Source: Octopus vulgaris (lineage: Eukaryota). Taken from it: a stretch of DNA of 64,000 bases. The stretch is taken from contig OX597832.1 in NCBI GenBank assembly GCA_951406725.2, positions 28,954,001-29,018,000 of the forward strand, given 5' to 3'. The translations under genes were made by a program, and so were the position numbers. Of the stretch, positions 5,101 through 62,171 are shown piece after piece; the first letter of the stretch is position 1, and every line of letters begins with the position of its first letter. The notes under the pieces were generated by a model that was not told the origin of the DNA, made no database searches, and saw only the letters and a program-made list of their open reading frames with translations.

Positions 5101-5823
5101 ATGTCGTGGCTGTGTGGTAAGAAGCTTGCTTCCCAACCACATGGCTCTGTGTTCGATCCCACTATGTAACCTGTTGGGTAATTGTCCTTTACTACCGATA
5201 GAATAAGTACTAGGCTTACAACGAATAAGTCCTGGGGTCGATTTCTTGACTAAAGGCGATGCCCCAGCATGGCCGCAGTCAAATGGCTGAAACAAGTGAA
5301 AGAAATAAAAGAAAGATACGGCGGGCTTCTTTCAGTTTCCGTCTACCAAATCCACACGCAAGACTTTGGTCGGTCCGAGCCTATCGTAGAGGACACTTGC
5401 CTAAGGTTGGGACTGAACCCGGAACCATGTGGTTGGGAAGCAAGCTTCTTACCTCACACCCTCGCTTGCCTGAAACCAACAAGCCCTATACATATGCATG
5501 TTTGCATGTATGTGTGTGCATATGCACATGCGCGCGTATATATATAGACACACACACACACACACATTTCCCAACCACATGGTTCCGGGTTCAGTCCCAA
5601 CCTTAGGCAAGTGTCCTCTACGATAGGCTCGGGCCGACCAAAGTCTTGCGTGTGGATTTGGTAGACGGAAACTGAAAGAAGCCCGCCGTATCTTTCTTTT
5701 ATTCCTTTCACTTGTTTCAATCATTTGACTGCGGCCATGCTGGAGCATCGCCTTTTGTCAAGAAATCGACCCCAGGACTTATTCTTTGTGTAAGCCTAGT
5801 ACTTATTCTATCGGTAGTAAAGG

Positions 5824-5828
<5 letters not shown>
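5101..5828. mobile_element. Cluster of SINE family B fragments forming an inverted duplication (arms 5181-5439 and 5568-5828)
   Basis: tRNA-like head tggctgtgtggtaagaagcttgct...gttcgatccc; body gtagacggaaactgaaagaagcc; tail gcatggccgcagtcaaatg. The arms are reverse complements of each other. Confidence 0.9.
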
Positions 5829-9270: not shown

Positions 9271-10236
9271 CTTTTCTACACTTGGCACAAGGCCCGAAAT
9301 TTTGGCGGAGGGGGCCAGTCGATTAGATCGATCACAGTACGCAACTGCTACTTAATTTATCGATCCCCGAAAGGATGAAAGGCAAAGTCGACCTCGGCAG
9401 AATTTGAACTCAGAACGTAACGACAGACGAAATACCTATTTCTTTACTACCCACAAGGGGCTAAACATAGAGAGGACAAACAAGGACAGACAAACGGATT
9501 AAGTCGATTATATCGATCCCAGTGCGTAACTGGTACTTAATTTATCGACCCCCGAAAGGATGAAAGGCAAAGTCGATCTCGGCGGAATTTGAACTCAGAA
9601 CGTAAAGACACACGAAATACCTATTTCTTTACTACCCACAAGGGGCTAAACACAGAGAGGACAAACAAGGACAGACAAACGGATTAAGTCGATTATATCG
9701 ATCCCAGTGCGTAACTGGTACTTAATGTATCGACCTCCGAAAGGATGAAAGGCAAAGTCGATCTCGGCGGAATTTGAACTCAGAACGTGGCGGCAGACGA
9801 AATACCTATTTCTTTACTACCCACAAGGGGCTAAACACAGAGAGGACAAACAAGGAAAGACAAACGGATTAAGTCGATTATATCGATCCCAGTGCGTAAC
9901 TGGTACTTAATTTATCGACCCCCGAAAGGATGAAAGGCTAAGTCGACCTCGGCGGAATTTGAACTCAGAACGTAAAGACACACGAAATACCTATTTCTTT
10001 ACTGCCCACAAGGAGCTAAACACAGAGAGGACAAACAAGGACAGACAAACGGATTAAGTCGATTATATCGATCCCAGTGCGTAACTGGTACTTAATTTAT
10101 CGACCCCGAAAGGATGAAAGGCTAAGTCGACCTCGGCGGAATTTGAACTCAGAACGTAAAGACACACGAAATACCTATTTCTTTACTGCCCACAAGGAGC
10201 TAAACACAGAGAGGACAAACAAGGACAGACAAACGG
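9271..10236 (-). repeat. Head-to-tail tandem array of 5'-truncated SINE family A units (185-bp period)
   Basis: Units start at 9437, 9622, 9807, 9992 and 10176 with an identical junction gaaatacc|tatttctttact; homologous to the full-length copy at 10890-11119. Confidence 0.92.
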
Positions 10237-10343
10237 CTTTAAAAAATGTACTGGGGTCGTTTCATTCGACTAAAATTCTTCAAGGCGGTGCCCCATTATG
10301 GCCGCAATCTAATCACTGAAGCAAATATTAAATATATACATAC

Positions 10344-10445: not shown

Positions 10446-10889
10446 ATATATAAGTGCTTACAGCCTTTTTGTAGAATGTTGAGTATTTCTTTTCGAAATC
10501 TTTGCTGAGGTTTGCTTGTCCTGCATTTCTGGGGTTCACATGGGAACTTAGAAAGGAGTGGACGTTTCTTGATGAGTTCCCGTCCGACCCATGGGATGTT
10601 TTTCTCTTTTGTTTTGGGGCGTTCGGTTGTTGTATTTAATTTGGTTCCCGCCGTTTAACAGCTGACGTCTGAGCCACGTCATACAGCACTCAAAGTCTGT
10701 CTGAACCGACCTTCAACTTATTCCTGCCTCTTTACTTCGGAGGTAGTCTGTCAATACGTACGAATATAGACGAGTATGTATATATGTGTGTGTGCATGTG
10801 TGTCTGTATATAAATGTGCGTGTGTGTCAGTATATATACATGTATGTGTGTGCTCATGCTTGTGTGCGTGCGTGTTCATATATATATAT

Positions 10890-11119
10890 ATTTCTTTATT
10901 GCCCACAGGGAGCTAAACACAGAGGGGACAAGCAAGGACAGACAAACGGATTAAGTCGATTACATCGACCACAGTGCATAACTGGTACTTATTTAATCGA
11001 CCCTGAAAGGATGAAAGGCAAAGTCGACCACGGCGGAATTCGAACTCAGAACGTAACGGCAGACGTAATACCCCTAAGCATTTCGCCCGGCGTGCTAACG
11101 ATTCTGCCAGCTCGCCGCC
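10890..11119 (-). mobile_element. Full-length tRNA-derived SINE family A
   Basis: Minus strand: ggcggcgagcTGGCAGAATCGTTAG (A-box)...GAGTTCGAATTCC (B-box)...tail ending gtgggcaataaagaaa; (TA)n on both sides. Confidence 0.9.
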
Positions 11120-11398
11120 CTATATACATATATATATATATATAGTGTGTGTGTGTGTGTGTGTGTGTAGCCACTCCAGTTAGTTGTGTCTGGTATGTCT
11201 GATCACGTGGCCAATCCTAAATTCCTCGGAAATCTGCGACCAGACATCTGAGGTGAATCCGTGGCTTTAATGAGTACGCAGCCACAGACTGTACTCCTCC
11301 TCACTCACATCTGCCTTTACACATGTAGAATGCACTGAGTTATACATACCGTACCGAAGTGGGTGTATAATAATGAGTACACATATGTGAAACACCTG

Positions 11399-19079: not shown

Positions 19080-19286
19080 GTGAAATAGAAAGATGAATAA
19101 TCTTGTAGTAGATTAATCAAAAGTTTAACCGATACCTTAGTAGCAAAAATCACAGCAGTAAAACAGCACGGTTGGAGGTACAACCATATGGTGTTGCAAC
19201 CGTGCGTTGGTGCGGATAATTGAAATTAGAACATTATTGGTGAATTGAAGAAATGGAGCTGAACGCAGATTGAACAGAAATCGTTT

Positions 19287-19380
19287 TATTTCATTCTACA
19301 CGTGTTTCGAAAGGCACAAATTACCAAAATCCGATGGAATAATGGGACCATATTGTGTCTTTCTCTTCAGGAAGAAAATA
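19287..19380 (-). ncRNA. Type I hammerhead ribozyme (mirror copy in left arm)
   Basis: Exact reverse complement of 19437-19530. Confidence 0.8.
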
Positions 19381-19436
19381 GTTCGATTTGTTTTTGCTCC
19401 GCCTCTGTTCTGTTTTTGTTTTTCCAACGGATTTCC

Positions 19437-19530
19437 TATTTTCTTCCTGAAGAGAAAGACACAATATGGTCCCATTATTCCATCGGATTTTGGTAATTTG
19501 TGCCTTTCGAAACACGTGTAGAATGAAATA
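19437..19530 (+). ncRNA. Type I hammerhead ribozyme with palindromic stem III
   Basis: tattttcttc-CTGAAGA-gaaagacacaa...ttgtgcctttc-GAAA-cacgtg-TA-gaatgaaata. Stem II 10/11 bp, stem I 9/10 bp (one G·U), GUA triplet with cleavage predicted after 19520. Confidence 0.82.
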
Positions 19531-19577
19531 AAACGATTTCTGTTCAATCTGCGTTCAGCTCCATTTCTTCAATTCAC

Positions 19578-19670
<93 letters not shown>

Positions 19671-19750: not shown

Positions 19751-19842
19751 CGCCCACTGGGGTACTTGAAACCACGACTCTCAGATCACTAAGCTTAAGT
19801 CTACCATAAAATCTGATGCTCAACCGACTGAGCTATGTGGGC
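19751..19842 (-). tRNA. Intron-containing tRNA-Lys(UUU)-like gene, probably a pseudogene (intron about 19787-19806)
   Basis: GCCCACATAGCTCAGTCGGTTGAGCATCAGATTTTA[20 nt]ATCTGAGAGTCGTGGTTTCAAGTACCCCAGTGGGCG. Acceptor stem 6/7, anticodon loop 1 nt short, T-stem altered, TTTT downstream. Confidence 0.7.
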
Positions 19843-21275: not shown

Positions 21276-21311
<36 letters not shown>

Positions 21312-21312
21312 A

Positions 21313-21512
21313 GGGCGGCGTGCTGGTAGAATCGTTAGCACGCCAGGAAAAAAACGCTTTGTGGCATTTCGTCCGTCGCTGCGTTCTGAGTTCAAATTCC
21401 GCCGAGGTCGACTTTGCCTTTCTTCCTTCCGGGATCGATAAATTAAGTACCAGCGGAGTATTGTGCTAGATATAAGCGACTGACCCACCTCCCCCGAACG
21501 TGTAGGCCTTGA
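21313..21512 (+). mobile_element. SINE family A copy with the alternative tail
   Basis: gggcggcgtgctggtagaatcgttagcacgcc...gagttcaaattccgccgaggtcgactttgcc. Confidence 0.85.
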
Positions 21513-27295: not shown

Positions 27296-27498
27296 GCAGA
27301 AGCGTTACAACGCCGGATGAAATGCTTAGCGGCACTTCGTTCGTCTTTGTGATCTGAGTTCAGATACAGTCGAGGTCGACTTTGCCTTTCGTTCTTTCCA
27401 GGGTCGATGAAGTAAGTACCAGTTACACCCTCGGGTTTGACGTAATCGGTTATCCCCGCCCCCAAAATTTCAGGCTTTGTACCAAAATTTGAAACCAG
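27296..27498 (+). mobile_element. SINE family A, diverged copy with the alternative tail
   Basis: gaaatgcttagcggc...gaggtcgactttgcctttc...cccaaaatttcaggctttgtacc. Confidence 0.75.
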
Positions 27499-29514: not shown

Positions 29515-29981
29515 GTGTGTAGTCGTTACCTTTTGTTTTTCAGTAACGTTGATATTCAACCTAAGAAGCTATTTACTCTTAACACCTCCAATACCGTCCA
29601 ACTCAACTCTAACCAATTCCTACATTACTTCCTGTACCGTTGTACTTTGTGTTCTTGCTTTCCTATTTCTAATGTGTAATTCTTCTTCTTCTTCTTCTTC
29701 TTCTTCTTCTTCTTCTTCTTCTTCTTCTTCTTCTTCTTCTTCTTCTTCTTCTTCTTCTTCTTCTTCTTCTTCTTCTTCTTCTTCTTTCTCTTCTTCTTCA
29801 TCTTCTTTTCTTCTTCTTCCTCCGCCTTCTCCTCTTCCTTCTCTTCCACCTTATTGCCTTCTCTCCTCCCCTCATACCCCCATACCTGCTGTTTATTTCT
29901 TTGACTTGCAGACACTAAGTGGGACGGGTTTTAGCTGCAAATATAAACTTTAAGCCAAATTCATTATCAACATTTATCATG

Positions 29982-30057
<76 letters not shown>

Positions 30058-30079
30058 CACATCTATCTATCTATCCAGC

Positions 30080-30215
30080 CTCCTTTTACGATCCCTTTTG
30101 ATCGAAACTCCCCCTTCCTTTTTTTTTTTTTTTCTTTCTTAAACCTTCAAAAGAAAAGCTCTACCTTGTAATTTGTTCTATCTGTGTGCAGCCCTGTGTG
30201 GCTAATAAAGAAACA
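30080..30215 (+). mobile_element. Extremely 5'-truncated copy (3' tail only) of the Tx1-like LINE
   Basis: Identical to 32096-32234 except T-run length; flanked by the 13-bp direct repeat tatctatccagcc (30068-30080 / 30216-30228). Confidence 0.9.
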
Positions 30216-30233
30216 TATCTATCCAGCCATCCG

Positions 30234-30323
<90 letters not shown>

Positions 30324-30332
30324 CATCCATCC

Positions 30333-30370
<38 letters not shown>

Positions 30371-30377
30371 TTGTCTG

Positions 30378-30463
<86 letters not shown>

Positions 30464-30472
30464 CAGCCATCC

Positions 30473-30532
<60 letters not shown>

Positions 30533-31859
30533 GAAAAACTGAAAAACTACGAAGCGGTGACAGGAGCGAAAATCAACCGGGAAAAGTCAGTGGGCTTGCG
30601 ACTAGGCACCTGGAGAAGCAAGCCCATGCCGTCCACCAGCGCCTCCGTCGTGGGACGCTGGACCGACGGCCCGGTTGAGTTGCTCGGGGTCTGGTTTGGT
30701 CCGGACCTCCAAGTGGAGAAGAACTGGAACGAGATAACGAGTAGGGTGGTCACTCTCGCCCGGCAATGGGCCGTGAGGAAACTGTCCCTAAAAGGTCGAG
30801 CGGAGGTGGCGAACACGTACATCGCGTTCGTCATCTACTACCGCCTGACCGTCGTACCTTGTCCCGACCCTACCATCACCAAACTACAACGCATCCTCTT
30901 TCGCTTCTTGTGGAAAGGATGCGTCCCGATGGTCAGGCGATCCATTTGCTGTCAACACCCGTTAAAAGGAGGGCTGGGCATGCCGTGGTTGATGATGCGC
31001 AGACACGCGCTGAGACTGCGGCATCTCTGGCTCTATGTAGACGACGGTGAACAGGTGTGGTCGCCGTTTGTGAGGCACGCTTTCCCGCAGCTCGTCTCCA
31101 TGACCGAACTGCAGTCGTGGATCAAAAAGAGGCCGAGGAAGGGCGAATGGCACCGCGAGTGTCGCGTTGCTCTCAAGCAACTCTGCCGTCCTGGGTCGAC
31201 CTTAAGTGACTTCAACACAACCAAAGCATTCTATAGGGGTTTAGTGGAGGGGAGGTACGACGACGAGCTCGGGGCGAACCTGGACGTCGACGAGGAGTAC
31301 CTGACCCGCCTGTTCAGGACGACTTTCGGGCCAGGGCCCATGGACAACTTCCAGAGATCCCTGGCCTGGCAGTGCTACCGAGAAGCGCTACCCGTTCGGG
31401 ATAAGCTCTACAGACACGGCTCGAGAAACACGGGGCCGACCTGCCCGAGATGCGGTCAGAGCGACGAAACCGTTCTGCACGCACTCGTTCAGTGTCCAAC
31501 AATTTCCGACCTGTGGGCTTATGTCGAACAACTGCTGTCACGTGTGGGACGAGTCGGTTTATCAGCTGAGTCTATCGTCAATATTGTCACGCCTCCTTCC
31601 TTCAAACGGGAAGGAAGAGCTATTTTCATCATCCTTGTGGCTATGGCGAAAGAATGTATCTGGTGGACGCGTCTGAAAGGATTGGAGACAAACACTTTCC
31701 TCTCTGGTCAATCTCTCATCAACTTCTTCAAGTACCACTTGAAAAGGAAAGTGAGAGTAGAGGCAAGTTTTGTCTAGCGAATGTTTTAAAAAAAGATGGG
31801 TGAATGTAGCAAGAATGGCACGTATGAATGACGAAGCCACCTTGAGCATAGTCCTATGA
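30533..31859 (+). pseudogene. ORF2 fragment: end of reverse transcriptase domain plus zf-RVT CCHC finger
   Basis: GAKINREKS, LLGVWF, LSLKGR, FRFLWKG, GGLGMP and CPRCGQSDETVLHALVQC. Open to 31777; a probable 2-bp deletion near 31760 shifts the natural end (RQVLSSECFKKRW...SIVL*, stop at 31859). Confidence 0.9.
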
Positions 31860-32234
31860 ACCCAGAAATCGAAAACAGAGAGTTGCTTATTTGCAAAAAA
31901 AAAAAAAAAAAGAAATATAAAATGTGACATCATTGACCGAGGTTACCGTGGTCTTTTCCGTAGGCTTTTCTTTGCACGGGTAAACCTCACCTGTCCTCCC
32001 CTTTACACTTCATATTGACATTTCTGTGATAACGATCCCTATTGATCAATTTCCCCCCCCTTTTTTTTAAACCCCCCTTTTTTTGTCCTCTTTCTCTCCT
32101 TTTACGATCCCTTTTGATCGAAACTCCCCCTTCCTTTTTTTTTTTTTTTTTTCTTTCTTAAACCTTCAAAAGAAAAGCTCTACCTTGTAATTTGTTCTAT
32201 CTGTGTGCAGCCCTGTGTGGCTAATAAAGAAACA
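30533..32234 (+). mobile_element. 5'-truncated L1/Tx1-clade non-LTR retrotransposon inserted in (ATCT)n
   Basis: GC-rich island with an ORF2 C-terminal half, pyrimidine-rich 3' UTR and AATAAA, no poly(A); (ATCT)n on both sides. Confidence 0.92.
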
Positions 32235-32267
32235 TATCTATCTATCTATCTATCTATATCTACCTAC

Positions 32268-32313
<46 letters not shown>

Positions 32314-32357
32314 CTCTGTCTATCTATCTATCTATCTATCTATCTATCCATCTATCC

Positions 32358-32388
<31 letters not shown>

Positions 32389-32970
32389 AATCTATCTATC
32401 TATCTATCTATCAATACATACATACATACGTATATATACATACATATTTAAAGTGTATGTGTGTGTATGTATGTGTATGTGTGTATGTGTGTGTGTGCAA
32501 TATAACTTACATTGTTAGCGATAAAACATTGTAAGCACAAGTTTCATAATCTGTAAAACTGAGCAATCATCAGACGTCAACTCAGTCAGTTATTAAAATA
32601 TCCAGTTATTATATCTAATATATATTTAATACGCATGTGCATACATACATATATACATATATATAAATATGTAAGTGTATGTGCGTGCGTGTGTGTGTAT
32701 GTGTGTGCGTGTGTGTGTGTATGTGCGTGCGTGTGAGTGTATGTGTGTGTGTGTACCTGCTGAAAATATTTTAAAAAGGCGCTGTCATCTATTTTGCAAC
32801 GTTCGGGGCCAATAATCTGTAAGGCGTATGATGTCACACCCCTTCTCATCAATGACAGAGTAAAGATATAATTAGCGAAATATAAACTATTAATCATGTG
32901 TAATTAATACAACGGTTCGTTAGTTAATTCTCTGGTATTTCTGTACAAAAGTCTGTTGAACCCTGCCGCA

Positions 32971-37041: not shown

Positions 37042-37520
37042 TCGTTCCACGAGTCAGCTGTCGATCTTCTTCAAATGTTTCCACGCCAGATATTCTCTTT
37101 GGTATAAAATTCCTTCTGGATTCAGATTTTTGGCCCCGTTTGCTGGGTAAACATAGCAGTTTCTCGTTCGTTTTTGTTTGTTTTTCCCAACATCAAACCC
37201 TAAAACAGTTGAACATCTTTGACTCCTCTCACTTGCAACCTATTCTTCAGATTTTCCTTTCCTTTCTTTTATTTATTTTTTTTTTTAACCATTTTCTAAC
37301 AGACTAAAATAACATTCTTTAATAGACAGAATTTACAGAGAAGCTAAATGGAATGACAGGGACGGAATTAACTTTCGTTGCTCTAAGTCATATGGTAAAA
37401 TTAAATCTAAAGAACCACTTTTTGGGGAAGGCGGCTGTAAATGATAATAATAATAATAACAATAATAATAATAATAATGATGATGATGATGATGATAATG
37501 ATAATAATAATAATAATAAC

Positions 37521-37571
<51 letters not shown>

Positions 37572-37586
37572 AATAATGATGATGAC

Positions 37587-37636
<50 letters not shown>

Positions 37637-37677
37637 CGATGATGATGATACTAATAATAATAATAATAATAATAATA

Positions 37678-38276
<599 letters not shown>

Positions 38277-38292
38277 AATAATAATAATAATA

Positions 38293-38642
38293 GGCTTTTG
38301 ATCTTAACTGATTGGAAATGTTATCATGTACATATTTTGTCTTGGTATGAAAGACAGGCTACAGCAAATATTCTGCTCAATACCACAGATTTGCTTGCAA
38401 GGTCATGCGCTGCAAGGTCATGTGCTGCAAGGTCATGTGCTGCAAGGTCATGTGCTGCAAGGTCATGTGCTGCAAGGTCATGCGCTGTTTATCTTGATAT
38501 GAGATCACCATGTCGCGTACAATATGGTTGCGATACATGTGCCTGGCGTACCCTTATCAGACGGGTAGTCATGATGGGTATACTGGAATTCGTATATTTT
38601 ACCCAAGCGTCACATTGATGGCATGCACTGCTCTCTCACTCA
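38293..38642 (+). mobile_element. Element G, copy 2, with internal deletion and a 6 x 15-bp tandem repeat (38396-38485)
   Basis: tgcaaggtcatgtgc x6 starts at the deletion junction. Confidence 0.75.
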
Positions 38643-38643
38643 C

Positions 38644-38730
<87 letters not shown>

Positions 38731-39131
38731 GTTGTCAGAGATCATGAAGAAAAAAATCCTTCTAATTGATGTATCAATACCGGCAGATGACAACGTGTCT
38801 CTAAAAGAAATGGAGAAACTCTCAAAATACAAAGACCTGGAAATAGAGGTAACTAGAATGTGGAATCTGAAAACAGAAACAATTCCTATCATAGTAGGTG
38901 CATTAGGCATGATAAAAAAATATTCAGACAAATACATAACAAAAACACCAGGACTTACAAACACATATAACATACAGAAAATTGCACTACTAGGCACTGC
39001 ACACATCCTACGCAGAACACTTTCCATACAATAACCATCAGAGCATCACAACAAATCACAGCACATACCCAAGGCACACAGAGCTGTGCTCGGTAGTGAA
39101 GTGAAAGCACGCTATAAAAATAAAACTACTG
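38731..39131 (+). mobile_element. 5'-truncated R4/Dong-type non-LTR retrotransposon (restriction-like endonuclease C-terminus plus 3' UTR) in (TAA)n
   Basis: LLIDVSIPADDNVSLKEMEKLSKYKDL...RMW...IPIIVGALG...QKIALLGTAHILRR* (stop at 39034) is the RLE-domain signature; (TAA)n on both sides. Confidence 0.88.
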
Positions 39132-39153
39132 AATAATAATAATAATAATAATA

Positions 39154-39197
<44 letters not shown>

Positions 39198-39732
39198 GTT
39201 GTCAGAGATCATGAAGAAAAAATCCTTCTAATTGATGTATCAATACCGGCAGATGACAACGTGTCTCTAAAAGAAATGGGCTACAGCAAATATTCTGCTC
39301 AATACCACAGATTTGCTTGTCAGTTGTTTGACCTAACAGTTGAGCATGTCCCTTAGTGGCTGACGATATGTGCATCTCTGATCACGAGCAGAAGTAGTGG
39401 GGGAGCATCATGGCCATGTGTTGAGAGGATTCTTTGGAGTTTGAATGGTTCACCTCTGGAAACATAGGTGTTTCGTTCAACATCCTAAAGCAACCCTTAT
39501 TCAGGGACCGTTTGAGCAGGATGGGCTACTCAACCTGAAGAAAATTCTAACTGGGCCCCACCTGCAAGGTCATGTGCTGTTTATCTTGATATGAGATCAC
39601 CATGTCGCGCACATATGGCTGTGATGCATGTGCCTGGTGTACCTTTATCAGACGGGTAGTCATGATGGGTATATTGGGCTTCGTATATTTTACCCCAGTG
39701 TCACTTTGATGGCATGAACTGCTCTCTCACTC
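39198..39732 (+). mobile_element. Chimera: R4/Dong fragment (39198-39279) fused to element G copy 3
   Basis: Same 5' breakpoint as 38731; switches at the microhomology taaaaga(a)atgg. Confidence 0.85.
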
Positions 39733-39807
<75 letters not shown>

Positions 39808-61913: not shown

Positions 61914-62171
61914 AAAATTATAATTAAGGATATCTAAAAGATACCACAATGCTAGATATAGCAGCCAAAACTTGACTCTAAAACCACATTAAATGTTCAT
62001 ACAGCGCCACGAGAGAAGACAAAGAGTCAAATTAAACTAGCAAACTAGTTTATTTTGTCTCTTTGTCTTCTTTCCTGGTGCTATATGAACATTTAATGTG
62101 GTTTTAGAGTCAAGTTTTGACTGCTATATCTAGCATTGTGGTATCTTTTAGATACCCTTAATAATAATTTT
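61914..62171. repeat. Near-perfect palindrome: 127-bp arms, 4-nt loop (caaa, 62041-62044)
   Basis: The arms are reverse complements with scattered substitutions and no apparent indel. Confidence 0.9.

What the first reader, a model, noticed from the sequence alone, without database searches (positions are those of the whole stretch)
29980..32415. Tx1-clade LINE apparently targeting (ATCT)n/(GATA)n, with two young insertions in one array
Seen: a 136-bp tail-only copy (30080-30215, with the 13-bp TSD tatctatccagcc) and a 1.7-kb copy (30533-32234) sit in the same orientation in one (ATCT)n tract. Their 3' junctions (aaagaaaca|tatctatc) are the same, their tails are identical apart from a T-run, and the ORF is open for over 400 codons. 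Known: Tx1-clade families such as Kibi and Koshi are specific for (TC)n and (TTC)n microsatellites. Inference: this is a recently active family with tetranucleotide GATA-repeat specificity.
Basis: partly seen in the sequence, partly recalled or inferred. Interest (0 to 1): 0.7.

Follow-up and report, generated by a model that had tools for sequence, protein, structure and literature searches.

The report
Octopus retrotransposon sitting in GATA repeats
Two near-identical, truncated copies of an octopus jumping gene sit in one GATA-repeat tract, which suggests a new target for a known class of repeat-seeking retrotransposons, but one locus cannot prove the preference.

Summary
A 136-bp tail-only copy (30080-30215) with a 12-13-bp target-site duplication and a 1,702-bp 5'-truncated copy (30533-32234) lie in one orientation and one phase inside a pre-existing (TATC)n array; their tails match at 121 of 121 bases outside a T-run. 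The element is the 3' part of an L1-group LINE of an octopod lineage. Corrections: the long copy is frameshifted near 31762 and has an 8-bp repeat at its 5' junction, so it is a dead copy; the TSD's CAGC variant recurs at 30460. The repeat is not just an element-made tail, and the short copy is not a duplicate of the long copy's junction. Best reading: two target-primed insertions by a recently active Tx1-type family preferring (TATC)n (about 0.6). Not excluded: a broader TC- or TA-repeat preference, or a short copy templated locally from the long one. No other copies could be obtained, and Tx1-clade placement was not testable. Tetranucleotide targeting by Tx1 is already published for crocodilians ((TTCC)n, (TTTC)n); only the motif and host would be new.

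The parts
29982..30080 (+). (TATC)n array, first segment, 5' of the short copy; ends in the left TSD
   Evidence: TRF 29982-30075, period 4; unit parse
30068..30080 (+). Left copy of the target-site duplication TATCTATCCAGCC (12 bp if the last C belongs to the element)
30080..30215 (+). Short copy: last 136 bp of the element's 3' UTR, T-run of 15, ends AATAAAGAAACA, no poly(A) tail
   Evidence: 97.8% to 32096-32234, the only difference a 3-nt T-run gap
30216..30228 (+). Right copy of the target-site duplication
30216..30532 (+). (TATC)n array, middle segment, between the two copies; holds a second CAGC CATC variant block at 30460
   Evidence: TRF; unit parse
30531..30546 (+). 8-bp direct repeat CTGAAAAA x2 at the 5' junction of the long copy; first unit probably added during integration (inferred)
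   Evidence: close relatives lack E-K at this position
30533..32234 (+). Long copy: 5'-truncated L1-group LINE (end of RT region, zinc-finger region, 3' UTR); no endonuclease or RT core present
30539..31777 (+). ORF2 fragment, open to a premature stop at 31775-31777 after a frameshift near 31762; GC 55% against 38.5% for the window
31358..31516 (+). zf-RVT (PF13966) zinc-binding region, residues 276-328 counted from 30533
   Evidence: Pfam E 4.5e-08, 34.1 bits against cut-off 27.5
31761..31859 (+). True C-terminus of ORF2, in a second frame, ending at a stop at 31857-31859
   Evidence: tblastn of P0001 residues 882-912, 59% identity; alignment with relatives
31860..32234 (+). 3' UTR: A-run, pyrimidine tracts, an imperfect internal repeat (about 32032-32068 and 32104-32142), AATAAA near the end
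32235..32412 (+). (TATC)n array, last segment, 3' of the long copy; variant pattern differs from the middle segment
   Evidence: TRF; unit parse

Best explanation
An octopod L1-group, probably Tx1-type, LINE family prefers (TATC)n/(GATA)n arrays and inserted twice here by target-primed reverse transcription. Shown: two 5'-truncated copies, same strand and phase, same 3' end, a 12-13-bp TSD on the short copy, array on both sides of both. Inferred from established L1/Tx1 biology: ORF2 from an intact source copy elsewhere nicked the GATA strand opposite C^TATC; the freed end primed cDNA synthesis at the RNA 3' end, possibly helped by pairing with UAUC read through from the source's own array, which would explain the fixed phase and the lack of a poly(A) tail; a second nick about 13 nt away made the TSD; synthesis stopped early (136 nt and 1.7 kb) and was joined through 1-2-nt microhomology, with an 8-nt re-priming repeat on the long copy. 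Both copies are dead.
For: Same 3' junction and phase for 2 of 2 copies; chance about 6e-6 for this motif, 9e-4 for any shared 8-mer. Array precedes both 5' ends. TSD includes a variant unit, and the flanks after the two copies differ (16 of 40 bases). At the maximal reading both 5' flanks end one base into a repeat unit, as a 13-nt stagger would give (weak, 1 in 4 by chance). Full-length relatives carry APE + RT + zf-RVT (P0002) and match human L1 ORF2p best in the PDB (E 1e-72, against 6e-29 for R2). Window protein falls in an 11-row clade with two Argonauta proteins, SH-aLRT 100; an Octopus bimaculoides predicted protein begins with an 83%-identical piece. Precedent: Tx1 families target (TC)n, (TTC)n, (TTCC)n, (TTTC)n (PMC4494074); TATC differs from TTTC by one base. 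O. vulgaris has 13 recently active L1-Tx1 families, 421 insertions (PMC13282606).
Against: Only two copies, about 320 bp apart, chosen because they looked this way. No further copy with flanks was found. The other 4 of 5 large AGAT arrays in the window are empty. AGAT is the third most abundant repeat class in the window (1,336 of 11,079 bp of perfect repeats), so a looser preference would often land there. A SINE with a related tail sits in (TA)n instead. The long copy's TSD cannot be read inside a pure repeat. Octopus also has plain L1 families (60, against 80 L1-Tx1), and clade placement was not tested.
Confidence: 0.6

Rival explanations
1. The family targets microsatellites more loosely (pyrimidine-rich TC-core repeats as Kibi, Koshi and the crocodilian families do, or repeats beginning with TA), and both copies are in (TATC)n because it is abundant.
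For: AG, AAG, AAAG and AAGG classes total 1,055 bp against 1,336 bp for AGAT, so two hits in AGAT would have a chance of about 0.3 under a TC-core rule (my arithmetic). The tail-sharing SINE at 10889-11121 (-) lies in (TA)n and also ends ...AAAGAAATA|TA.
Against: Identical phase at both junctions. A 140-bp (TTC)n array 160 bp upstream (29680-29819) is empty. The SINE tail is only 76-81% identical over 41-42 bp and may be served by a sister LINE.
Confidence: 0.2
2. Only the long copy is a retrotransposition. The short copy was templated locally: a break in the array was repaired by pairing with the TATC repeats behind the long copy and copying 136 bp of its tail.
For: The two lie 2 kb apart tail to tail in one array, in one orientation, with 121 of 121 identical bases. 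Repeat pairing would give the same 3' phase automatically. No other copy of the family is in the 64 kb.
Against: A clean 12-13-bp duplication and a 1-nt 5' microhomology are the usual marks of target-primed insertion (established knowledge). The T-runs differ (15 vs 18). Tail-only copies are the commonest LINE product (established knowledge).
Confidence: 0.12
3. The element inserts without preference and carries or seeds its own (TATC)n tail, as RTE-type LINEs do with microsatellites.
For: The 3' end cannot be placed exactly: the element could end in ...AAACA...AAACAT or further into the repeat. Microsatellite tails are described for an octopus RTE LINE (PMC9115989).
Against: About 99 bp of array lie 5' of the first copy, the array continues across the TSD through a variant unit, and 317 bp lie 5' of the long copy.
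Confidence: 0.04
4. Tandem duplication or misassembly made the short copy.
For: Repeat-rich region; a self-alignment joins 30080-30398 with 32096-32415 at 93%; the CAGC block recurs in the array.
Against: That alignment runs on plain TATC units; the variant patterns of the two downstream arrays do not match, and the short copy's right flank repeats its own left flank, not the long copy's.
Confidence: 0.04

Closest known systems
Crocodilian Tx1 families Tx1-1_Crp, Tx1-5_Crp, Tx1-6_Crp, Tx1-1_Gav, Tx1-2/3/5/8_AMi (PMC4494074, section 15 read)
   Same: APE-type L1-group LINEs preferring a tetranucleotide microsatellite with a TC core ((TTCC)n, (TTTC)n).
   Different: Repeat here is (TATC)n, not purely pyrimidine; host is an octopod; relationship by RT tree not tested.
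Kibi and Koshi (teleost Tx1 clade; as described in PMC4494074 and PMC3812793, passages read)
   Same: Tx1-type elements inserted into microsatellites, (TC)n and (TTC)n.
   Different: Different repeat unit and host; the (TTC)n array next to this locus is empty.
Octopus L1-Tx1 families (PMC13282606: 80 families, 13 recently active; first third of the text and the supplement read)
   Same: Same host group, same annotation class, recent activity; this family is probably among them (inference).
   Different: No target preference is reported in the parts read.
Waldo ((ACAY)n), Mino ((AC)n), Dong ((TAA)n), Togen ((TG)n) (PMC3812793, PMC4640811, passages read)
   Same: Non-LTR retrotransposons that use microsatellites as safe targets; Waldo has a tetranucleotide target.
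   Different: Other clades (R1 for Waldo and Mino, R4 for Dong: recalled; NeSL-related for Togen) and other repeats.

Membership tests
L1 group of non-LTR retrotransposons | ORF2 with APE endonuclease, RT and C-terminal zinc finger, closest to L1 ORF2p | tested here: met
   Window fragment has zf-RVT. RT and APE are shown only in relatives: P0001 (72% identical) RVT_1 + zf-RVT, P0002 (41%) Exo_endo_phos + RVT_1 + zf-RVT; P0002 matches L1 ORF2p at E 1e-72, R2 at 6e-29.
L1 group of non-LTR retrotransposons | 5' truncation with a common 3' end and a target-site duplication | tested here: met
   2 of 2 copies share the 3' end and are 5'-truncated; TSD readable for 1 of 2.
Tx1 clade | RT phylogeny groups it with Tx1L, Keno, Kibi, Koshi rather than with L1 proper | not testable with these tools
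   No named Tx1 reference was returned; the tree of 111 rows holds only C-terminal regions of mostly unnamed relatives.
Tx1 clade, target-specific families | Over 20% of a family's flanks are one repeat type (criterion in PMC4494074) | tested here: inconclusive
   2 of 2 copies are in (TATC)n, but they are neighbours; searches for more copies with flanks gave none.
Tx1 clade, target-specific families | Endonuclease cleaves the target sequence specifically | not testable with these tools
   The endonuclease is not in the window.
Kibi / Koshi | Target is (TC)n or (TTC)n | tested here: not met
   Both copies are in (TATC)n; (TTC)n at 29680-29819 is empty.
Kibi / Koshi | Teleost host | tested here: not met
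   Nearest named relatives are from Octopus bimaculoides and Argonauta hians.
Active autonomous copy | Full-length, uninterrupted ORF2 | tested here: not met
   5'-truncated and frameshifted near 31762.

The most novel reading that the evidence does not exclude
Octopod Tx1-type LINEs have split the genome's very abundant microsatellites among sister families: this one is strictly (TATC)n-specific with a fixed phase and a stagger of about 13 nt, a sister family carries a tail-sharing SINE into (TA)n, and the choice is made by endonuclease plus pairing of read-through repeat RNA. This would be a natural series for asking how APE retrotransposons switch targets, and it would extend Tx1 microsatellite targeting beyond vertebrates and beyond pure pyrimidine repeats.
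Probability: 0.25. Interest if true: 0.5.

Novelty: new member of a known kind. Interest (0 to 1): 0.3.

Why it matters
If the preference holds genome-wide, it adds (TATC)n/(GATA)n and a mollusc host to the list of microsatellite targets of Tx1-type LINEs; the targets found in the papers read are (TC)n, (TTC)n, (TTCC)n and (TTTC)n, all in vertebrates. A one-base step from TTTC to TATC is a simple test case for how the endonuclease reads its target, and site-preferring LINEs are of interest as insertion tools. In practice it warns that GATA markers in octopus can hold LINE insertions. It does not change how these elements are thought to work.

Tried and rejected
Looking for more copies with flanks. 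blastn and tblastn in the window found no third copy. Protein-based and 24-nt tail-pattern scans of the bacterial and archaeal genome collection, run in case host DNA had been carried in, found nothing. A phmmer search with the translated 3' tail, meant to catch spurious ORFs that run into flanking repeats, gave 1 hit at 47% identity, an unrelated 3,604-aa LapA/LRR protein, rejected. A scan of all 223 stored proteins for (TATC)n-derived peptides hit only the window's own translation. Clade placement: two ESM Atlas searches gave only unnamed RT/zf-RVT clusters. RNA folding of the LINE and SINE tails gave no stable structure (z from -0.62 to 0.66, 4 of 4 sequences), so no stem-loop is claimed. 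Rejected at this locus: pure self-made tail; tandem duplication of tail plus flank; intact ORF. Literature: nine searches returned no report of a (TATC)n/(GATA)n-targeting Tx1 element. Kojima and Fujiwara 2004 and Christensen 2000 were not held; Fig. 3 and the supplements of PMC4494074, which list targets family by family, could not be seen; Repbase and Dfam entries could not be checked.

Full report
What is there. The stretch 29982-32412 is one (TATC)n array cut into three segments (29982-30080, 30216-30532, 32235-32412) by two pieces of the same element, both on the + strand. The short piece, 30080-30215, equals the last 139 bases of the long piece, 30533-32234, except that a T-run is 15 rather than 18 long; the other 121 bases are identical. 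Both end AATAAAGAAACA and are followed at once by TATCTATC, with no poly(A) tail. The short piece is flanked by TATCTATCCAGCC on both sides (30068-30080, 30216-30228); the last C can also be read as the first base of the element, so the duplication is 12 or 13 bp.

Is it more than chance? With the inserts removed, 299 of 124,300 positions on both strands are followed by TATCTATC. Two independent random insertions would both have this flank with p about 6e-6, or about 9e-4 if any shared 8-mer is allowed. Random insertion is therefore unlikely, but the copies are neighbours and were picked for this look. That both lie in the same array is not surprising in itself: given two insertions among the five large AGAT arrays, the chance of sharing one is 0.26. 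The other 4 of 5 are empty.

What the element is. The frame from 30533 is open for 414 codons and carries a zf-RVT domain. Its relatives (58, 208 and 43 proteins in the longer, near and shorter searches) include full-length proteins of about 1,150 aa with APE, RT and zf-RVT domains, whose best PDB match is human L1 ORF2p (E 1e-72; R2 6e-29). The nearest named relatives are octopod: an 83%-identical piece at the start of Octopus bimaculoides XP_014776104 and two Argonauta hians proteins at 63% and 61%. In a tree of 111 C-terminal regions (relatives covering 250 or more query residues; shorter ones left out) the window protein lies in an 11-row clade with both Argonauta proteins, SH-aLRT 100. 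So this is an octopod L1-group LINE. The Tx1 label is likely, from the repeat target and from L1-Tx1 being the larger class in O. vulgaris (80 families, 56 Mb, against 60 L1 families, 11 Mb), but no named Tx1 reference was available, so it is inferred and not tested.

The ORF is not intact: relatives continue R-E-V-L...-R-W-V to their ends, and the window has this in another frame from about 31761 to a stop at 31857-31859. The 5' junction of the long copy holds CTGAAAAA twice (30531-30538, 30539-30546), and the four closest relatives covering this point lack the E-K that the first unit encodes; among 130 matching relatives none has K at that second position, though 52 have E at the first. The element proper probably starts at 30539. 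The CAGC variant that makes the TSD visible occurs again at 30460, which weakens but does not remove the TSD argument. Youth rests on 0 substitutions in 121 bases, an upper bound of 2.4%; on the calibration in PMC13282606 (distance 0.09 = 25 My) that is about 3-4 My or less (my arithmetic). It shows recent activity of the family, not present activity.

Rivals tested. A self-made tail cannot explain array lying 5' of both copies or running through the TSD. A duplication of tail plus flank would repeat the long copy's flank, but the two flanks differ at 16 of the first 40 bases and in their variant units. Two rivals stay open. First, a looser preference: TC-core repeats (AG, AAG, AAAG, AAGG) cover 1,055 bp and AGAT 1,336 bp of perfect repeats, and a SINE whose last 41-42 bases are 76-81% identical to the LINE tail sits in (TA)n. 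Against this, a (TTC)n array 160 bp upstream is empty and the phase is the same twice. Second, the short copy could have been copied from the long one during break repair primed on TATC repeats; sequence alone cannot separate this from target-primed insertion, though the clean TSD favours the latter.

How it most likely works. An intact source copy elsewhere supplies ORF2. Its endonuclease nicks the GATA strand opposite C^TATC, the freed end primes reverse transcription at the RNA 3' end, perhaps aided by pairing with UAUC repeats read through from the source's own array, and a second nick about 13 nt away gives the TSD. At the maximal reading both 5' flanks end one base into a unit, as a 13-nt stagger would give (weak). 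Synthesis stopped early both times and was joined through 1-2-nt microhomology. The structure is shown; nick position, stagger and RNA pairing are inferred from established L1, Tx1 and R1-clade biology (recalled).

Attempts to get more copies failed: no third copy in the window, none in the prokaryotic genome collection, none through translated tails. No eukaryotic genome collection was available, and the metagenome and viral collections stayed unchecked. The family-wide claim is therefore untested.

Comparison with what is known. Microsatellite targeting by Tx1 elements is established: Kibi (TC)n, Koshi (TTC)n, and eight crocodilian families (TTCC)n or (TTTC)n (PMC4494074: passages and section 15 read, figure and supplements not seen). 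Waldo, Mino, Dong and Togen target other repeats (PMC3812793 and PMC4640811, passages). O. vulgaris has 13 recently active L1-Tx1 families with 421 insertions (PMC13282606, first of three parts and the supplement). Passages only were also read in PMC4758252, PMC3747384, PMC9115989, PMC8967140, PMC10294476 and PMC8869645; none of those passages names a (TATC)n target. Nine searches found no report of a (TATC)n/(GATA)n-targeting Tx1 element, but the founding 2004 paper was not held and Repbase and Dfam could not be checked. It works like Kibi, Koshi and the crocodilian families; it is not Kibi or Koshi by target or host.

Context. The same window shows another pile-up of retroelement ends in one microsatellite: four pieces in an (AAT)n complex at 37440-39807, one with an RLE-like C-terminus that suggests Dong/R4. 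Several insertions in one array are thus not exceptional in this genome.

Verdict. Real feature; L1-group, probably Tx1-type, octopod LINE; (TATC)n preference likely (0.6) but resting on one locus; a new member of a known kind. Interest 0.3; most novel reading 0.25 probable, worth 0.5.

Noticed in passing
window 37440-39807 (+): An (AAT)n complex holding four retroelement pieces in one orientation, each ending at (AAT)n: about 37786-38278, 38293-38643 (with a 15-bp tandem repeat), 38731-39132 and 39198-39733. The third has a 100-aa frame (38732-39034) resembling the restriction-like endonuclease end of R2/R4-type elements (PDB R2 hit only E 0.11, no Pfam hit); probably Dong/R4, known to target (TAA)n. 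The fourth joins the start of the third to the first element.
   Followed up: partly
window 10889-11121 (-): A solo SINE-like element flanked by (TA)n on both sides, whose last 41-42 bases are 76% identical to the LINE's 3' end; a candidate passenger of this or a sister LINE.
   Followed up: partly
window 9317-10239 (-): Five tandem 185-bp units of the same SINE, each with the LINE-like tail followed by the SINE's internal sequence; the last unit ends in a different tail, which suggests tail swapping in this SINE family.
   Followed up: partly
window 21311-21481 (+) and 27296-27448 (+): Further copies of the same SINE body without the LINE-like tail; the first starts right after a (TTG)n run.
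   Followed up: no
window 5181-5828, 19233-19584, 61914-62171: Long inverted-repeat or palindromic elements (88-97% arm identity), probably MITE-like.
   Followed up: no
window 19751-19842 (-): A tRNA-like sequence (ARAGORN tRNA-His, anticodon ATG; Rfam tRNA 40.8 bits), possibly a SINE head or pseudogene.
   Followed up: no
protein P0057 (XP_014776104.1): The O. bimaculoides rho-GEF-10-like prediction begins with about 43 residues of this LINE's ORF2, probably a LINE fragment taken into the gene model.
   Followed up: no
protein P0062: A 64%-identical relative is labelled as a bacterial (Herbaspirillum) MAG protein yet falls inside the octopod clade; probably carried-over eukaryotic DNA rather than gene transfer.
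   Followed up: no
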